From positions 1,591-65,590 of the forward strand of contig CALVPR010000001.1 in assembly GCA_944351765.1 (NCBI GenBank): DNA of 64,000 nt, given 5' to 3'. Origin of the DNA: an uncultured Bacilli bacterium. GTDB lineage: Bacteria > Bacillota_I > Bacilli_A > RF39 > UBA660. Positions 46,976 to 51,303 of the stretch are shown one piece after another. The notes under the pieces are model-generated. The model was not told where the DNA came from. It searched no databases and saw nothing but the letters and a program-made list of their open reading frames with translations. The stretch's first letter is position 1, and every line of letters begins with the position of its first letter. Both the position numbers and the translations under genes were made by a program.

Positions 46976-48028
46976 TTAAAATAATTTCTTTAATGATTTA
47001 TTTTTCTCTTTAAAATTCCATGTTATAGTTTCACCTTCACTTATTTTATTATTACTATCGCATAATAATAACGTAATATCCATATGACTTATATTTTCTT
47101 GATTGTCATAATTAAGTGATACAATATAACCTACTACTCCATTTTTATTTATATTAGTAGCAGAAGGAACTCCCAATAATAATTGGTCTTTATTATCATA
47201 AACATAATTATATATAAATCCTTTATGAAGATGACCTGATATTAATACATTATACTTATTTTCACAAAAAATATTATCTTTTGAAATTTCATCTAAACTA
47301 TTTATTATTTTAGAATTCACTACCCAATTCAAATATAATCTATGACTAAAATGTATTTTAACATTGGAAAAAGTTGCTTCCCACTTATTTCTAGGAATTA
47401 CATAAAAATTTCTTGAATATCTAGTAAGTTGTCTTAAGTCATATATATAAGGAATAGGTATTTTGTCAAAAAAACCATTTATATTTTCATCATGATTTCC
47501 AATTAAACCATAAGTTTTTATTTCATCAATATTAGGATAATACTCGCCAAACAGGTTAAATAATTTTGAAACATCATCTTCTCGTGGGAAGTTATCAATT
47601 AATCTTGAAAATATATCACCCATATGAAAACATTTAGTTACACCTTGTTGCAAACTAAAATTATAAATATTTTGTATCATATTGTAATTTTCTAATTCAG
47701 TGTTACCAATATGAGTATCTGAAATCAAAAGAAATTTTTTATTTTTGTTATCATCCACATTAAATGAGTAATACTGTCTTGTTACTGCTGAATCATGATA
47801 ATATTCATAATCAACATATCTGTAAACAGATTCTTTATTCCAATAATCATCCCTAACAATTATTCCACGATCCACTAGTAAATAATTTACTGCTAATTCA
47901 ATTTCGTTAATACTATATTGTTCTTTTAACAAATTGCTTATTTGCCTTATTGTTAAGTTTTTATATTTAACAAAGAGTTTTTCTATTTTGTATATTAAAC
48001 AAAAAGTTTCACTTGACGCAAAATACAT
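46976..48028 (-). CDS. Calcineurin-like metallophosphoesterase with N-terminal ~90-aa unknown domain (paralog 1)
   Basis: LLISDTHIGN, HMGDIFSR, GNHDE, SGHLHKG metallophosphoesterase motifs. Confidence 0.65.
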   Translation of the reverse strand: MYFASSETFCLIYKIEKLFVKYKNLTIRQISNLLKEQYSINEIELAVNYLLVDRGIIVRDDYWNKESVYRYVDYEYYHDSAVTRQYYSFNVDDNKNKKFLLISDTHIGNTELENYNMIQNIYNFSLQQGVTKCFHMGDIFSRLIDNFPREDDVSKLFNLFGEYYPNIDEIKTYGLIGNHDENINGFFDKIPIPYIYDLRQLTRYSRNFYVIPRNKWEATFSNVKIHFSHRLYLNWVVNSKIINSLDEISKDNIFCENKYNVLISGHLHKGFIYNYVYDNKDQLLLGVPSATNINKNGVVGYIVSLNYDNQENISHMDITLLLCDSNNKISEGETITWNFKEKNKSLKKLF

Positions 48029-48072
48029 ATTATCCCCCTTAATCCAAATATAGATTATAACATAATATTTTT

Positions 48073-49128
48073 TTAAAATACTTTTTTTAACAATTTATTT
48101 TTACCTTTAAAATTCCAACAATAAGTTTCACCTTCACTTATTTTATTATTATTATCACATAATAGTAATGTAATATTCATATTATTAATATTACCTAAAT
48201 CAGCATTATTAATATCTATGATATATGCTACTACTCCATTTTTATTTATATTAGTAGCAGAAGGAACTCCTAAAAATAATTGTTCTTTGTTATCATAAGT
48301 ATTATTATATATAAATCCTTTATGTAAATGACCAGATACTAAAACATTATATCTATCATAATAAAATAAATTACCATTTGCTATTTCATATAATTCTTGT
48401 AATTTGTGTTCACACATAATGGGGTTTAAATATAATCTATGACTGAAATGAAACATAACATTAGAAAGTTTAAGTTCCCATACACTTCTAGGAATTACAT
48501 AAAAATTATTTACATATCTCGTTAACTGTCTTAATTCATGTTTAAAGGGAATTGGTTGCTTTTCAAAAAATCCATTAATATATTCATCATGATTTCCAAT
48601 TATTGCATAAGTCTTTATTTCATCAAAGTTTGGGTAATATTTTTCAAATAAAGAAAATTGATTTAATATATCTTCTCTTTTCCAAAATCCATTTACTACT
48701 CTTGAAAATATATCACCCATATGAAAACATTTAGTTACGCCATGTTGCAAACTAAATTCATAAATATTATGTAACATCTTATAATTTTCTAATTCACTGT
48801 TACCAATATGAGTATCAGATATTAATAAAACCTTTTTCTCTTTATTATCATCTACTTCAAACGAAAAATAGTGTCTAGTATATGTTGAATCATGTAAATA
48901 TTTGTCCGCAATATATTTATATACAGCATCTGCACTCCAAAAGTCATCTCTAACTATTATTCCACGATTTACTAACAAATAATTTATAGCAAATTCAATA
49001 TCTGCAATGCTATATTTACCATTTAATATTTCTCTTATATGATTTATTGTTAAACTACCATAATTAATAAAAAGTTTTTCTATAATAAATATTAGATCAT
49101 ATATTTTATCTGAAATACAATTATACAT
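48073..49128 (-). CDS. Calcineurin-like metallophosphoesterase (paralog 2, tandem duplicate)
   Basis: Same motif set; roughly 60-65% protein identity to paralog 1 by eye. Confidence 0.65.
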   Translation of the reverse strand: MYNCISDKIYDLIFIIEKLFINYGSLTINHIREILNGKYSIADIEFAINYLLVNRGIIVRDDFWSADAVYKYIADKYLHDSTYTRHYFSFEVDDNKEKKVLLISDTHIGNSELENYKMLHNIYEFSLQHGVTKCFHMGDIFSRVVNGFWKREDILNQFSLFEKYYPNFDEIKTYAIIGNHDEYINGFFEKQPIPFKHELRQLTRYVNNFYVIPRSVWELKLSNVMFHFSHRLYLNPIMCEHKLQELYEIANGNLFYYDRYNVLVSGHLHKGFIYNNTYDNKEQLFLGVPSATNINKNGVVAYIIDINNADLGNINNMNITLLLCDNNNKISEGETYCWNFKGKNKLLKKVF

Positions 49129-49327
49129 ACCATCCCCCCATATTGGGGTATATTATAGCATAATATCTTTTTTTATACAATCATTTAAATACTAAAAATA
49201 AGTATTATATAAAATCATGATTTATTTTTTAGAAAGGAAACTACATTATGCAAAATAAAAATGTAGGGAAATTAATATTTACATTAAATTCCTACATTAT
49301 ATCTTTTACACAATATACATTTTAAAA

Positions 49328-50320
49328 TTACACACTTAATTGTTTTATTTTTAATTTGCCTTTTGTAATATTTCCATATTCATTTATTATTTTTTTTATT
49401 ACTTCATCATATGAAGTGTTATAAAATCTACCAGCACAGCGATTACTATGACCACCACCATTACAAGCTATAGCCAATTTTAAAATATCTATATCACAAT
49501 TATCAATTTTTTTAAATTTAATAAAATAATTATTTTCTATTTCAATAATGAATATTGATATTGGACAACTTTCTATTGGCGCTGTTAAACTATCAAACGA
49601 TGGATGTTTTAATAATTTAGTTATATCACCCATTTCTATTGGAACAGACAAGTTAAACATACGAATTCCATCTTTTTCAAATCGTTTGTTTTCCTTTATT
49701 AATTTATATAATTTTTCTTGTTCTAAGTTCATTTTTAACAATTTATCCTTTATATTATTTCTTTCTTGTTTATCACTAACAAGTATATTAGCAATTCTTA
49801 AAGAGTCTGATGTAACAGATCTTTGAAAGCAAAAAGTATCTGAAGCCATCCCTAAATATAAATTATACATTATATCATTGGAAATTTTATGTTTTTTATT
49901 TAACAAGAAACTTGCTATTATTTCACAAGTTGAACATGATTTAGGATTTATAAATTTGTTTTGAGATAACACTTCTAATTCTTGACGATTTCTATCGTGA
50001 TGATCAATTAAGAATCTCTTTTCTATAGGGACCTTATTAAAAATATCTATACCATATACCCTATCTTGTTCATTTACATCACAAACAATAATATAATCTA
50101 TTTGTTTATCATTTACTTCATCTAATGTATAATATTTTAATTTAGACTTATGTTCAAAAGGTAACTTATGTTTTTCTATTATAGGAATTACATTTATTTT
50201 TTTATCATTTAATATATTAGGTAGAGTTTCTGCTAATGATAACGTACTCATCACAGCATCGCCATCACAATTTTTGTGCGTAATTATAGCTATATTTATT
50301 TTATTATTCATCTTAATCAC
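49328..50320 (-). CDS. nrnA: DHH/DHHA1 family phosphoesterase (NrnA-like oligoribonuclease / pAp phosphatase)
   Basis: DHH motifs HKNCDGDAV and LIDHHD; DHHA1 GGGHSNRCAG. Confidence 0.75.
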   Translation of the reverse strand: MIKMNNKINIAIITHKNCDGDAVMSTLSLAETLPNILNDKKINVIPIIEKHKLPFEHKSKLKYYTLDEVNDKQIDYIIVCDVNEQDRVYGIDIFNKVPIEKRFLIDHHDRNRQELEVLSQNKFINPKSCSTCEIIASFLLNKKHKISNDIMYNLYLGMASDTFCFQRSVTSDSLRIANILVSDKQERNNIKDKLLKMNLEQEKLYKLIKENKRFEKDGIRMFNLSVPIEMGDITKLLKHPSFDSLTAPIESCPISIFIIEIENNYFIKFKKIDNCDIDILKLAIACNGGGHSNRCAGRFYNTSYDEVIKKIINEYGNITKGKLKIKQLSV

Positions 50321-50449
50321 TCCTTTAACTTTTTACTACTATTATTTAAATAATTTGCTTTTTTTTCGTTATTTTATAAACAAATTTCTATACATTTTTC
50401 ATTTTAAATATTTTAAAATACAATGGCTTAAACAAAACACTTATTTTAT

Positions 50450-51303
50450 TTACTTATATGTTTTTTTATTCAATACTTTTTTTAATATTACATTCTCTTC
50501 ATCATTTGTTATATTGTTATTAATTCCAGTTCCTAAATGAATTAAAGGTTTTACAATAGGGCCATGATAATCACTTCCTTTTGTTACTAATAATTTATAT
50601 TTGTCGGCAATAATTCTTAACTTTTTCATTTCTTCTAAAGTTTGATCAGAATGATAACATTCAAGTCCCTCTAACCCATAACTTAGTAGTTCTATTATCT
50701 TATTTTCTAAATCAGTATCATTTAATTTTAATTTTTGTGGATGAGCTAAAACAGCAATCCCATTAGCTTCTTTTATCATTTTAATAATTTCTTCAGGTTC
50801 ATATATAAATTCTTCTACTTCGCATAACGGTTTACAATTAAAATAATCTGAAAATATAGTTTTTTTATCTGAAATATATCCTTTTTGTAAAAATAGTTTT
50901 GCAAAATGTGGCTTACTAATTACTGATCCACCACTTATTTTTTGTAATTCTTCTAACGAAACATTAAATCCTATACTTTTAAAATATTCTATAAATTCTT
51001 TATTTCTAATATTTCGTTTATTAATTAAATATTTTAAATTTTGTTGTAAATTAATATTATTATAATCTATATTGAATCCTAATATATGCATTTGTCCCGT
51101 TTTACTTTTTGCTTTTAATTCAATACCTGGAATAAATATAATGTTTTTGTCTTTTGCGTAATTATCCGCTTCTTTTAATCCATCTACTGTATCATGATCA
51201 GTAATTGATAATGCACTAATATTTTTTTTATTGCTAAGTCAATCAACTCTTTTGGAGTCAATTCTCCATCTGATGCTGTTGTATGCGTATGTAAATCAAT
51301 CAT
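50450..51303 (-). pseudogene. PHP-domain phosphoesterase (TrpH/YciV-like) interrupted by a 1-nt frameshift in a T8/A8 homopolymer (51212-51219)
   Basis: N-terminal MIDLHTHTTASDGELTPKELIDLAIKK (PHP HxH motif) reads in one frame from 51303; continuation SALSITDHDTVDG...MHILGF and the 213-aa track ORF are in another frame; one extra A restores a ~284-aa ORF. Confidence 0.55.

What the first reader, a model, noticed from the sequence alone, without database searches (positions are those of the whole stretch)
46976..51303. Run of four different phosphoesterase folds (2x calcineurin-like, DHH/DHHA1, PHP) directly downstream of the AAA_5 cluster in one orientation
Four consecutive minus-strand genes encode metal-dependent phosphoesterases:
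- a PHP TrpH/YciV-like enzyme;
- a DHH-DHHA1 NrnA-like enzyme;
- two tandem paralogous calcineurin-like enzymes, each with an unrecognised ~90-aa N-terminal domain.

Several of these enzyme classes degrade nanoRNAs, pAp or cyclic (oligo)nucleotides. Their clustering with the uncharacterised ATPase cluster could reflect a shared operon devoted to nucleotide-signal or nucleic-acid turnover.
Basis: inference. Interest (0 to 1): 0.5.

Follow-up and report, generated by a model that had tools for sequence, protein, structure and literature searches.

The report
Gut-bacterium operon stacked with phosphoesterases
An uncultured gut bacterium keeps five different metal-dependent phosphate-ester-cutting enzymes side by side, one of them broken by a one-base deletion, in a swappable gene cluster next to a regulator; this most likely serves ordinary nucleotide and short-RNA recycling, not a new signalling or defence system.

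Summary
The run of phosphoesterase genes is real, with three corrections.

1. **PHP gene is broken.** It is split by a -1 frameshift in an A8 tract (51222-51229). Six other metagenome assemblies have the same A8. One diverged strain has A9 and an intact 284-aa gene.
2. **There is a fifth phosphoesterase.** The unannotated gene directly upstream (51325-52188) has a phospholipase C / P1-nuclease-like fold. Some homologues are fused to Ham1.
3. **The N-terminal domain of the two calcineurin-like paralogues** is predicted to be a winged helix.

Comparison with about 20 related loci shows a modular neighbourhood anchored on a LysR regulator plus the winged-helix metallophosphoesterase. The recurring backbone is Ham1, PLC-like, PHP, (PnuC), DHH, Met. 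The AAA_5/DUF7192 pair also occurs in Staphylococcus Kayvirus phages. It is absent from the closest relatives, where a PnuC/CoaD/CoaE module sits instead.

Sequence signals suggest two transcription units. A conserved LysR box and promoter lie before Ham1. A terminator-like hairpin and a promoter lie between DHH and MetB.

The best reading is a LysR-controlled island for nucleotide and oligonucleotide turnover and salvage. There is no evidence for cyclic-nucleotide signalling or defence. Interest is moderate: a new variant of a known kind, containing several uncharacterised families.

The parts
56559..57461 (+). LysR-family regulator, transcribed divergently from the cluster. It is the most constant neighbour of the winged-helix metallophosphoesterase in relatives.
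   Evidence: NCBIfam LysR-type hits. Pfam HTH_1 plus LysR_substrate. Present in 15 of 17 related loci, at 45-96% identity, beside the Met gene in varying orientation.
56521..56535 (.). LysR-type T-N11-A box, ATAAC-N5-GTTAT, centred about 65 bases upstream of the predicted Ham1 transcription start.
   Evidence: It is the only perfect match in the 64-kb window. The same dyad lies upstream of the LysR gene in 11 of the 17 loci listed (10 relatives plus L001, which is the window species).
56470..56498 (-). Predicted promoter for Ham1 and the downstream genes: TTGTAT, 17 bases, TATAAT. It is the palindromic mirror of the LysR promoter.
   Evidence: Read from the sequence. The element is conserved in relatives. 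Consensus scans alone are at chance level in this AT-rich DNA, so conservation is the evidence here.
55881..56447 (-). Ham1/RdgB non-canonical purine NTP pyrophosphatase; first gene of the unit.
   Evidence: Pfam Ham1p_like 1.8e-57. TIGR00042 scores 160.7 bits, above its 145.35 cutoff.
53999..55762 (-). MoxR/CbbQ/CobS-like AAA_5 ATPase. It has an N-terminal LRR_5-like segment and a coiled coil. Walker A reads GPAGSGKN; Walker B reads MFIDEID.
   Evidence: Pfam AAA_5 3.5e-12. phrog_249 2e-53. PDB CbbQ 6e-05.
53053..54015 (-). DUF7192 protein, partner of the ATPase. Its start overlaps the 3' end of the ATPase gene.
   Evidence: Pfam PF23822 3e-23. phrog_1909 2e-30. It is adjacent to an AAA ATPase in Staphylococcus Kayvirus phages.
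52257..53090 (-). Unknown protein of about 277 aa with a weak ankyrin-like stretch. It travels with AAA_5/DUF7192 in relatives. A 12-bp tandem duplication in it is polymorphic between strains.
   Evidence: No Pfam, NCBIfam or PHROG hit. DARPin hits over residues 125-181. Co-occurrence in relatives. Indel.
51325..52188 (-). Unannotated family with a zinc phospholipase C / P1-S1 nuclease-like fold; the fifth phosphoesterase. Invariant residues include the N-terminal MASF.IH, D42, H78 and H117xxxD121.
50450..51303 (-). PHP-domain RNase AM/TrpH-like gene, split by a -1 frameshift in this window into a 39-aa ORF and a 213-aa ORF.
51222..51229 (-). A8 homopolymer where the frame is lost. A9 restores the frame.
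   Evidence: A8 in the window and in six assemblies. A9 in strain L049. The 89% orthologue has an interrupted AAAAAGAAAT.
49328..50311 (-). Stand-alone DHH-DHHA1 phosphoesterase, NrnA/TmPDE-like.
   Evidence: Pfam DHH 1.2e-16. NrnA model 5.1e-21, well below its cutoff. Full-length alignment to 5o1u and 3w5w.
49251..49297 (-). Terminator-like hairpin (AUGUAGGAAUU...AAUUUCCCUACAU) followed by UUUUUAUUUU, downstream of DHH.
   Evidence: Hairpin energy -8.8 kcal/mol, found in a relaxed scan. The whole 199-nt gap folds with z = -2.89. The stock scanner missed it because of its loop-length rule.
49152..49180 (-). Predicted promoter for MetB-MetA: TTGTAT, 17 bases, TGcTATAAT (extended -10). A small CCCCA/TGGGG hairpin follows, just before the ribosome-binding site.
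   Evidence: Read from the sequence. It uses the same hexamers as the conserved Ham1 promoter. No experimental support.
48073..49128 (-). MetB: winged-helix domain, calcineurin-like metallophosphoesterase domain and a C-terminal beta extension.
46976..48028 (-). MetA: tandem paralogue of MetB (64% amino-acid identity) with all catalytic motifs intact.
46934..46966 (-). Terminator-like hairpin and T-tract after MetA, overlapping the 3' end of the convergent znuA gene. It marks the end of the cluster.

Best explanation
The run is the distal part of a LysR-linked, modular island for nucleotide and oligonucleotide turnover and salvage, in the chromosome of an uncultured, low-GC gut bacterium (Bacilli / 'Tenericutes', RF39-like).

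**Proposed roles (inferred from family membership).**
- Ham1 removes non-canonical purine NTPs.
- The PLC/P1-nuclease-like protein, the PHP enzyme (RNase AM/TrpH-like) and the DHH-DHHA1 enzyme (NrnA/TmPDE-like) trim short RNA or DNA fragments, dinucleotides and 3',5'-bisphosphates (pAp) down to mononucleotides.
- The two winged-helix metallophosphoesterases act on a nucleic-acid or nucleotide-diester substrate that is still unknown.

**Proposed transcription.** There are probably two units.
1. Ham1 to DHH, driven by a promoter with a LysR box at about -65.
2. MetB-MetA, driven by its own promoter after a leaky terminator.

**The AAA_5/DUF7192/ankyrin-like trio** is a separate, phage-shared MoxR-type module inserted into this backbone in this species.

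**The PHP gene** carries a recent homopolymer frameshift. This is probably tolerated because the neighbouring DHH enzyme covers the same diribonuclease and pAp-phosphatase function.

**Shown versus inferred.** Shown: domain identities, the frameshift and its strain polymorphism, the fold of the fifth enzyme, conservation of the neighbourhood and of the LysR box. Inferred: substrates, regulation, transcript structure and redundancy.
For: **Families.**

**Conserved order in relatives.**
- L050: Ham1, PLC-like, PHP, PnuC, DHH, Met.
- L047: Ham1, PLC-like, PnuC, unknown, CoaD-like, CoaE, DHH, MetB, MetA.
- L052: Ham1, PHP, PnuC in a different chromosomal context.
- LysR and Met are paired in 15 of 17 loci despite rearrangement.

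**Regulation.** The LysR box is conserved upstream of the LysR gene in 11 of the 17 loci listed and is unique in the window.

**Transcription signals.** Terminator-like hairpin plus promoter in the DHH-to-MetB gap.

**Functional overlap.** RNase AM has diribonuclease activity and can replace Orn (PMC11528712). RNase AM is a 5'-3' exoribonuclease (PMC7261194). That NrnA is a nanoRNase and pAp phosphatase is established knowledge from my own memory.

**PHP frameshift.** A8 in six assemblies; A9 intact in L049 and P0201.
Against: - No substrate was tested. All five enzymes score well below the curated equivalog cutoffs, so specific activities cannot be transferred from characterised enzymes.
- Promoter and terminator calls rest on sequence only, and consensus promoter matches are at chance frequency in this AT-rich DNA.
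- The closest relative (L045) keeps only one chimeric Met gene plus an unknown 636-aa gene in the slot. The enzymes are therefore dispensable as a set.
- AAA_5/DUF7192 recurs next to LysR and Met in distant relatives, which argues against it being a purely unrelated insertion.
Confidence: 0.5

Rival explanations
1. All eight or nine genes form one operon, in which the AAA_5 ATPase complex works together with the phosphoesterases to sense or degrade a nucleotide second messenger (cyclic oligonucleotides, c-di-AMP). That could be a defence or counter-defence device.
For: - The genes are co-oriented and compact.
- The AAA_5/DUF7192 pair is shared with Staphylococcus Kayvirus phages and matches PHROG families.
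- AAA_5/DUF7192 again lies beside the LysR and Met genes in distant relatives.
- The slot is hypervariable and has transposases nearby in relatives.
- The segment is nearly identical between strains whose flanks are diverged.
Against: - There are no meaningful PADLOC hits, only weak generic AAA matches.
- No cyclase, CARF, SAVED, TIR or effector genes are present, and no riboswitch was found.
- The closest relatives carry the phosphoesterase backbone without the ATPase module.
- The recurrent partners are Ham1, PnuC and CoaD/CoaE.
- An internal terminator and promoter are predicted.
Confidence: 0.1
2. The AAA_5/DUF7192/ankyrin-like module is a MoxR-type metallochaperone or activase. It would load or remodel the metal centres of the neighbouring metallo-phosphoesterases, in particular the winged-helix Met proteins.
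For: - The AAA_5 domain is closest to CbbQ/NorQ/CobS-type ATPases. Those ATPases act on metalloenzymes; this is established knowledge from my own memory.
- All neighbours are metal-dependent enzymes, and a ZnuA metal-binding protein flanks the cluster.
- AAA_5/DUF7192 recurs with LysR and Met in seven loci.
Against: - DUF7192 shows no detectable vWA or MIDAS similarity.
- Phages carry the pair with no metallophosphoesterase annotated in the roughly 12 kb around it that was inspected.
- Close relatives have the enzymes without the module.
- Walker A has Asn in place of the usual Ser/Thr.
Confidence: 0.1
3. There is no shared function. Independent housekeeping genes have simply accumulated in a recombination-prone slot between LysR and znuA, and the adjacency reflects lineage synteny and insertion history.
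For: - The content of the slot differs sharply between close relatives: 2 genes, 10 genes or 9 genes.
- Genes with no obvious connection to the phosphoesterases (CoaD, CoaE) sit in the same slot.
- One chimeric Met gene shows frequent recombination.
Against: - Ham1, PHP and PnuC are linked in a different chromosomal context.
- Gene fusions join the PLC-like family to Ham1.
- The LysR-Met pairing survives changes of order, orientation and flanks.
Confidence: 0.2
4. The PHP A8/A9 tract is a recoding or phase-variation site. Full-length enzyme would be made from the A8 allele by -1 ribosomal frameshifting on A_AAA_AAA, or by transcriptional slippage. Alternatively the tract would switch the gene on and off at high frequency.
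For: - The A8 tract lies in an A_AAA_AAA context, and a -1 shift or one added A gives exactly the intact protein.
- Both alleles exist in the population.
- The downstream frame is free of further stop codons in all strains.
Against: - Orthologues have an interrupted tract and a normal ORF.
- A8 and A9 track haplotype: all six near-identical assemblies have A8, and the only A9 is in the most diverged strain.
- An A9 tract inside the DUF7192 gene is stable in seven strains.
- Divergence between strains is too low to test for relaxed selection.
Confidence: 0.15

Closest known systems
Bacillus subtilis rph-rdgB(ysnA)-ysnB arrangement: Ham1/RdgB followed by a YfcE/MJ0936-type metallophosphoesterase (recalled from memory, not tested here)
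   Different: The Met proteins here are twice as long, with an N-terminal winged helix and a C-terminal beta extension. They score only 17.7-24.6 bits against TIGR00040, whose cutoff is 56.25. They are duplicated, paired with a LysR regulator, and separated from Ham1 by up to seven other genes.
NrnA (DHH-DHHA1 nanoRNase/pAp phosphatase) and TmPDE TM1595
   Same: Same two-domain architecture, with the DHH motifs and GGGH present. The alignment to 5o1u and 3w5w is full-length.
   Different: The score is 74.9 bits against an NrnA equivalog cutoff of 350. Pfam DHHA1 is not detected. The substrate is untested.
RNase AM / YciV / TrpH (PHP-domain 5'-3' exoribonuclease and diribonuclease) and PHP 3',5'-nucleoside bisphosphate phosphatase
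   Same: The repaired protein aligns end to end with both NCBIfam models at about 1e-52. RNase AM activities are described in PMC7261194 and PMC11528712.
   Different: Both scores are below the equivalog cutoffs: 178.8 against 375, and 176.2 against 400. In this window the gene is frameshifted.
Zinc-dependent phospholipase C / S1-P1 nuclease superfamily (Pfam PF00882, PF02265)
   Different: There is no sequence-level match to Pfam or PDB. No signal peptide is apparent from reading the N-terminal sequence; this was not tested with a predictor. No third-site His/His/Asp set is evident. It is fused or linked to Ham1 rather than secreted.
AAA ATPase plus ORF14-type gene pair of Staphylococcus Kayvirus phages (phage K, A3R)
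   Same: The same two families are adjacent in the same order: phrog_249 at 2e-53 and phrog_1909 at 2e-30, with tblastn identity of 31-33%.
   Different: The bacterial ATPase has an extra N-terminal region of about 290 aa (LRR_5-like plus coiled coil). The pair is chromosomal, followed by an ankyrin-like gene, and embedded among phosphoesterases. Its function is unknown in both settings.

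Membership tests
Calcineurin-like metallophosphoesterase superfamily (MetA, MetB) | Pfam PF00149/PF12850 match above the gathering score | tested here: met
   PF00149 scores 37.9 bits (MetA) and 27.2 bits (MetB) against a cutoff of 21.5.
Calcineurin-like metallophosphoesterase superfamily (MetA, MetB) | Metal-binding motifs DxH, GD, GNH(D/E), H and GHxH are present | tested here: met
   D105, H107, G138, D139, G178, N179, H180, D181, H230, G266, H267 and H269 are invariant in 22 sequences, including both paralogues.
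Calcineurin-like metallophosphoesterase superfamily (MetA, MetB) | Alpha/beta sandwich fold | tested here: met
YfcE/MJ0936 (YsnB-like) phosphodiesterase subfamily | TIGR00040 score above its cutoff | tested here: not met
   17.7 and 24.6 bits against a cutoff of 56.25.
SbcD/Mre11 nuclease | TIGR00619 score above its cutoff, and a Rad50/SbcC partner gene | tested here: not met
   17.5 bits against 77.65. No SbcC-like gene is adjacent.
NrnA-type DHH-DHHA1 phosphoesterase | DHH domain with DHH motifs | tested here: met
   PF01368 scores 61.5 bits against 28.1. DGD, D, DHH and D motifs are visible in the sequence.
NrnA-type DHH-DHHA1 phosphoesterase | DHHA1 domain with GGGH | tested here: inconclusive
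   There is no Pfam DHHA1 hit. However, a GGGH motif is present and the alignment to DHH/DHHA1 structures 5o1u and 3w5w is full-length.
NrnA-type DHH-DHHA1 phosphoesterase | NrnA equivalog score | tested here: not met
   NF053633 scores 74.9 bits against a cutoff of 350.
RNase AM / TrpH PHP phosphoesterase | Intact reading frame that encodes the N-terminal HxH metal ligands together with the rest of the barrel | tested here: not met
   A -1 frameshift at the A8 tract 51222-51229 in the window and in six assemblies. The frame is intact in the A9 strain L049.
RNase AM / TrpH PHP phosphoesterase | PHP domain; equivalog scores | tested here: inconclusive
RNase RNM scores 178.8 against 375, and the bisphosphate phosphatase model 176.2 against 400 (not met).
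Zinc-dependent PLC / S1-P1 nuclease superfamily (gene 51325-52188) | Characteristic all-alpha fold | tested here: met
Zinc-dependent PLC / S1-P1 nuclease superfamily (gene 51325-52188) | Sequence-profile membership (PF00882/PF02265) | tested here: not met
   No Pfam hit for the window protein and no PDB profile hit. Only sub-threshold PF00882 hits (25.3 bits against 26.8) appear, in distant family members.
Zinc-dependent PLC / S1-P1 nuclease superfamily (gene 51325-52188) | Zinc ligands, including the free N-terminus, at equivalent positions | not testable with these tools
   The invariant MASF.IH N-terminus, D42, H78, H117 and D121 fit the ligand order. Model coordinates could not be superposed here.
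MoxR/CbbQ/CobS-type AAA_5 ATPase | AAA_5 domain with Walker A and Walker B | tested here: met
   PF07728 scores 47 bits against 22. Walker B reads MFIDEID. Walker A reads GPAGSGKN, with Asn in place of Ser/Thr.
Cobaltochelatase CobS | TIGR01650 equivalog score, and a CobT/vWA partner | tested here: not met
   18 bits against 558.55. The partner is DUF7192, with no vWA hit.
LysR-type regulated divergent operon | LTTR gene transcribed divergently from the target, with a T-N11-A dyad near -65 | tested here: met
   LysR lies at 56559-57461. The box lies at 56521-56535, about 65 bases upstream of the predicted Ham1 start, and is conserved in relatives.
LysR-type regulated divergent operon | Regulator binds the box and controls transcription | not testable with these tools
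   This needs EMSA or footprinting, and expression data.
Known anti-phage defence systems (PADLOC) | Match to any defence-system protein model | tested here: not met
   Only weak generic AAA hits: LmuB 9.6e-07 and IetA 4e-05. Nothing for the phosphoesterases.

The most novel reading that the evidence does not exclude
The LysR-anchored slot is an exchangeable cassette site in which a phage-shared MoxR-type ATPase/DUF7192/ankyrin module cooperates with a dedicated set of metallo-phosphoesterases. That set includes two previously unrecognised families: the winged-helix metallophosphoesterase and the cytosolic PLC/P1-like enzyme. Together they would destroy a specific nucleic-acid or nucleotide species, for example invading nucleic acid, metabolite-capped RNA or a signalling oligonucleotide. 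The haplotype carrying the PHP frameshift would have spread because it tunes this activity.
Probability: 0.1. Interest if true: 0.7.

Novelty: new variant of a known kind. Interest (0 to 1): 0.4.

Why it matters
Small-genome gut Bacilli of the RF39 type are abundant, uncultured and poorly annotated. How they recycle RNA fragments, pAp and damaged nucleotides is largely guesswork.

This locus gathers the likely end-stage RNA and nucleotide turnover enzymes in one regulated place. It also exposes families with no functional annotation:
- the winged-helix metallophosphoesterase, whose catalytic domain matches Pfam only at the superfamily level;
- a cytosolic PLC/P1-nuclease-like family, found in only about 400 clusters among 1.8 billion representatives;
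- DUF7192;
- an ankyrin-like partner.

These are concrete targets for enzymology.

The locus offers two further leads. It is a natural experiment in redundancy, since the PHP gene is lost while DHH is retained. It also links a bacterial chromosome to an unexplained ATPase gene pair conserved in therapeutic Staphylococcus phages.

None of this is a new principle.

Tried and rejected
- **Rfam.** A gathering-score scan of the whole window and a permissive scan of 46000-57600 found nothing. There is therefore no known riboswitch or leader in the 129-bp and 199-bp gaps.
- **PADLOC.** No defence-system membership.
- **Sequence searches of PDB.** The PLC-like family profile, DUF7192 and the 280-aa protein gave nothing useful, apart from weak ankyrin-like hits for the last.
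- **Stock promoter and terminator scanner.** It is uninformative in this 23% GC DNA: 114 promoter-like sites against 119 expected. It also missed the intergenic hairpin, so I used conservation and a relaxed hairpin scan instead.
- **dN/dS test for relaxed selection on the frameshifted PHP gene.** It failed because the strains are 99.6-100% identical across the cluster.
- **First tblastn survey.** It suggested that PHP was unique to this species. This was wrong. A protein search and contig look-ups showed intact PHP orthologues in the same backbone in relatives.
- **LysR box elsewhere.** No second LysR box was found upstream of MetB; one-mismatch matches are at chance level.
- **Literature.** A search for DUF7192 returned nothing.
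- **AlphaFold-database fold library.** It was unavailable.

Full report
**Setting**

The window has about 23% GC, and nearly all genes lie on the minus strand. It reads correctly with the standard bacterial code. It carries ordinary chromosomal genes: SMC, a polysaccharide-synthesis cluster, PheST, RNase III, LexA and others.

Exact copies of its proteins occur on dozens of gut-metagenome contigs. Relatives of the key protein come from MAGs labelled uncultured Bacilli, Tenericutes, Candidatus Pelethosoma or Erysipelotrichaceae. NCBI places Pelethosoma in Mycoplasmatota incertae sedis. The host is therefore an uncultured, low-GC gut bacterium of the RF39-like kind. It is not a phage or a plasmid.

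**Checking the observation**

- **MetA (46976-48028) and MetB (48073-49128)** are tandem paralogues, 64% identical.
  - Both match Pfam Metallophos and Metallophos_2.
  - An alignment of 22 homologues shows every catalytic motif invariant, in both copies.
  - An AlphaFold model (pLDDT 88) shows three parts: an N-terminal three-helix, two-strand winged-helix pattern (residues about 7-72), the metallophosphoesterase sandwich, and a C-terminal beta extension.
  - The curated YfcE and SbcD models are far below cutoff.
- **The DHH gene (49328-50311)** has a clear DHH domain.
  - Pfam misses DHHA1.
  - The protein aligns from residue 9 to 314 with stand-alone DHH/DHHA1 enzymes, and it contains GGGH.
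- **The PHP gene is the exception.** In the window it is two ORFs, of 39 aa and 213 aa, in different frames.
  - They are joined at an A8 run at 51222-51229.
  - Adding one A gives a 284-aa protein that matches the PHP domain, and the RNase AM/TrpH-like and nucleoside-bisphosphate-phosphatase models at about 1e-52. Both of the latter are still under the equivalog cutoffs.

**The frameshift is real and polymorphic**

Six independent assemblies from different samples carry the same A8. The truncated 213-aa product is recorded on 62 contigs.

Its contig, L049, holds the same locus at 97.9% nucleotide identity with an A9 tract.

The orthologue at 89% identity has an interrupted AAAAAGAAAT, and more distant orthologues are intact. 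The history is therefore:
1. a lysine/arginine codon mutated, which created an A9 run;
2. the run then lost one base in the haplotype that is now common.

A8 and A9 follow haplotype, and an A9 run inside the DUF7192 gene is stable in seven strains. This favours a fixed recent frameshift over rapid phase variation. A -1 slip on A_AAA_AAA, or the addition of one A during transcription, would still yield the full protein. Leaky expression therefore cannot be excluded.

**A fifth phosphoesterase**

The gene just upstream (51325-52188, 287 aa) has no Pfam, NCBIfam, PHROG or PADLOC hit.

- **Conserved residues.** Its homologues share an invariant N-terminus MASF.IH, plus D42, H78, H117 and D121.
- **Family size.** A profile of the family finds only 401 clusters among 1.84 billion representatives.
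- **Bridge to a known Pfam family.** Some of the distant members give sub-threshold Zn_dep_PLPC hits, the best being 25.3 bits against a cutoff of 26.8.
- **Fusions.** Four family members are fused to a C-terminal Ham1 domain, and one to a Cof-type HAD phosphatase.

I conclude that this is a divergent, probably cytosolic branch of the zinc PLC/P1-nuclease superfamily, functionally tied to nucleotide metabolism. Fold membership is supported. Ligand geometry is untested.

**Comparative genomics**

I scanned one genome per species for relatives of MetB. I then catalogued neighbours by tblastn and ORF clustering, and by gene tables of exact-match contigs. The picture is modular.

- **Constant pair.** The winged-helix Met gene and the LysR regulator occur together in 15 of 17 loci. 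They are found in divergent, convergent or tandem orientation and with different flanks.
- **Variable neighbours.**
  - PLC-like gene: 8 loci.
  - AAA_5 plus DUF7192, usually with the 280-aa gene: 7 loci.
  - DHH: 4 loci.
  - Ham1: 4 loci.
  - A PnuC transporter with an unknown SLOG/radical-SAM-like protein: 5 loci.
  - A LOG-family protein: 3 loci.
- **Same chromosomal slot in the closest relatives** (LysR on one side; znuA, yidD and rnc on the other).
  - L045 (MetB 81% identical): only a 636-aa unknown protein and one Met gene. That gene is a MetB/MetA chimera.
  - L047 (62% identical): Ham1, PLC-like, PnuC, a 401-aa unknown, CoaD-like, CoaE, DHH, MetB, MetA.
  - L050 (PHP 89% identical): Ham1, PLC-like, PHP, PnuC, DHH, Met.
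- **Different chromosomal context.** L052 has Ham1, PHP and PnuC together.

The recurring backbone is therefore Ham1, PLC-like, PHP, (PnuC), DHH, Met. In the window species the AAA_5/DUF7192/280-aa trio sits between Ham1 and the PLC-like gene.

**The ATPase module**

- The ATPase matches phrog_249 (the CobS-like family labelled 'porphyrin biosynthesis') at 2e-53, and CbbQ in PDB.
- DUF7192 matches phrog_1909.
- tblastn finds the DUF7192 gene in 236 Staphylococcus phage records. In phage A3R it directly follows an AAA ATPase gene.
- The pair is thus a mobile two-gene module of unknown function, shared between phages and these bacteria.
- It is not part of the backbone in the closest relatives. 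It does, however, recur beside LysR and Met in more distant ones, so some functional tie cannot be dismissed.

**Transcription signals**

- **LysR/Ham1 spacer.** The 111-bp spacer holds the only perfect ATAAC-N5-GTTAT dyad in the window, at 56521-56535.
  - The dyad is conserved upstream of the LysR gene in 11 of the 17 loci listed.
  - It lies about 65 bases upstream of a TTGTAT-17-TATAAT promoter facing Ham1.
  - The LysR promoter is the palindromic mirror image of that promoter.
  - This is the textbook layout for a LysR-activated divergent operon.
- **From Ham1 to DHH.** Gaps are short or negative, except for 118 bp after Ham1 and about 130 bp before DHH. Neither has a hairpin followed by a U-tract.
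- **The DHH-to-MetB gap (199 bp).**
  - It contains a hairpin followed by UUUUUAUUUU, at 49251-49297.
  - A TTGTAT-17-TGcTATAAT promoter follows, at 49152-49180.
  - A small hairpin lies ahead of the ribosome-binding site.
  - The whole gap folds better than shuffled sequence, z = -2.89.
- **After MetA.** A second terminator-like hairpin closes the cluster.

I therefore predict two units, Ham1 to DHH and MetB-MetA, possibly joined by read-through. This rests on sequence only.

**What it most likely does**

- Ham1 is a bona fide RdgB-type pyrophosphatase and scores above its equivalog cutoff.
- RNase AM-type PHP enzymes are 5'-3' exoribonucleases with diribonuclease activity that can replace Orn (PMC7261194, PMC11528712).
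- NrnA-type DHH enzymes are the Firmicute nanoRNases and pAp phosphatases (my own knowledge).
- S1/P1-type enzymes cut single-stranded nucleic acids and 3'-nucleotides (my own knowledge).
- The recurrent partners in relatives are a PnuC-type nucleoside or cofactor-precursor transporter, CoaD/CoaE and LOG-family proteins.

Taken together, the evidence fits a regulated island for the end-stages of RNA and nucleotide turnover, sanitation and salvage, in an organism that probably depends on scavenging.

The overlap between PHP and DHH activities would explain why a PHP frameshift is tolerated. The substrate of the winged-helix Met proteins is open. The winged helix suggests a nucleic-acid substrate or a DNA-bound role.

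**What argues against the signalling or defence idea**

There are no defence-model hits, no riboswitch, no cyclase, sensor or effector genes, and the conserved partners are housekeeping-type genes.

Some features keep a more exotic reading alive at low probability:
- the slot is hypervariable;
- transposases lie nearby in relatives;
- the module is shared with phages;
- the LysR-to-MetA segment is 100% identical in a strain whose flanks differ by 3-9%.

**Verdict**

It is probably wrong about a single operon with the ATPase cluster and about nucleotide signalling.

Novelty lies in the arrangement and in several uncharacterised families, not in a new principle.

Noticed in passing
window 56470-56498: The LysR and Ham1 promoters form one palindrome. 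TTGTAT-17-TATAAT reads the same on both strands, so each -35 overlaps the other's -10. This implies mutually exclusive polymerase binding. The element is conserved in several relatives.
   Followed up: partly
window about 52477-52500 (inside the 280-aa gene): An in-frame 12-bp tandem duplication (AGATATAGGAAC twice) is present in the window and in L006. It is single-copy in five other assemblies and in L049.
   Followed up: yes
L045 10001-11056 (protein P0002): The single Met gene of the closest relative is a chimera. Residues 1 to about 285 follow MetB (89-97% identity) and residues from about 286 to 350 follow MetA (94-100%). The tandem pair apparently collapsed by recombination. The rest of the slot there holds only an unknown 636-aa gene.
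   Followed up: yes
window 46976-57461 compared with L004 and L049: The LysR-to-MetA segment is 99.9-100% identical to strain L004, while the flanking znuA is 97.2% identical and the 396-aa gene 90.9%. In L049 the low-divergence tract has different borders. This suggests a recent sweep or recombinational spread of this island among strains.
   Followed up: partly
L047 6016-8857; L007, L008, L009, L010, L015: Relatives carry a PnuC-type transporter, an unknown protein of 400-445 aa (split into three genes in some loci, with SLOG-like and radical-SAM-like parts), a CoaD-like nucleotidyltransferase and a CoaE kinase. These sit where the window has the ATPase module. This could be an undescribed cofactor or nucleoside salvage cassette.
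   Followed up: partly
window 53999-55762: The AAA_5 ATPase has Asn instead of Ser/Thr after the Walker A lysine (GPAGSGKN). It also has an N-terminal BspA-type LRR_5-like segment followed by a long coiled coil, both absent from the 372-aa phage version.
   Followed up: no
window 57462-58652, and L047 2911-4446: The unannotated 396-aa protein next to LysR shares its C-terminal half (about 50% identity) with a 511-aa protein that occupies the first position of the slot in relative L047. No family hit was found for either.
   Followed up: no
window 53596-53604, 49390, 53249, 54912: The cluster's coding regions contain further A8 and A9 runs on the coding strand, including an A9 in the DUF7192 gene. 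None varies among the seven strains compared. The window as a whole has 25 runs of 8 and 3 runs of 9.
   Followed up: yes
window 49129-49150: A small GC-rich hairpin (CCCCA-AUA-UGGGG) sits directly before the MetB ribosome-binding site in an otherwise AT-rich leader. It could influence translation initiation. There is no Rfam match.
   Followed up: no
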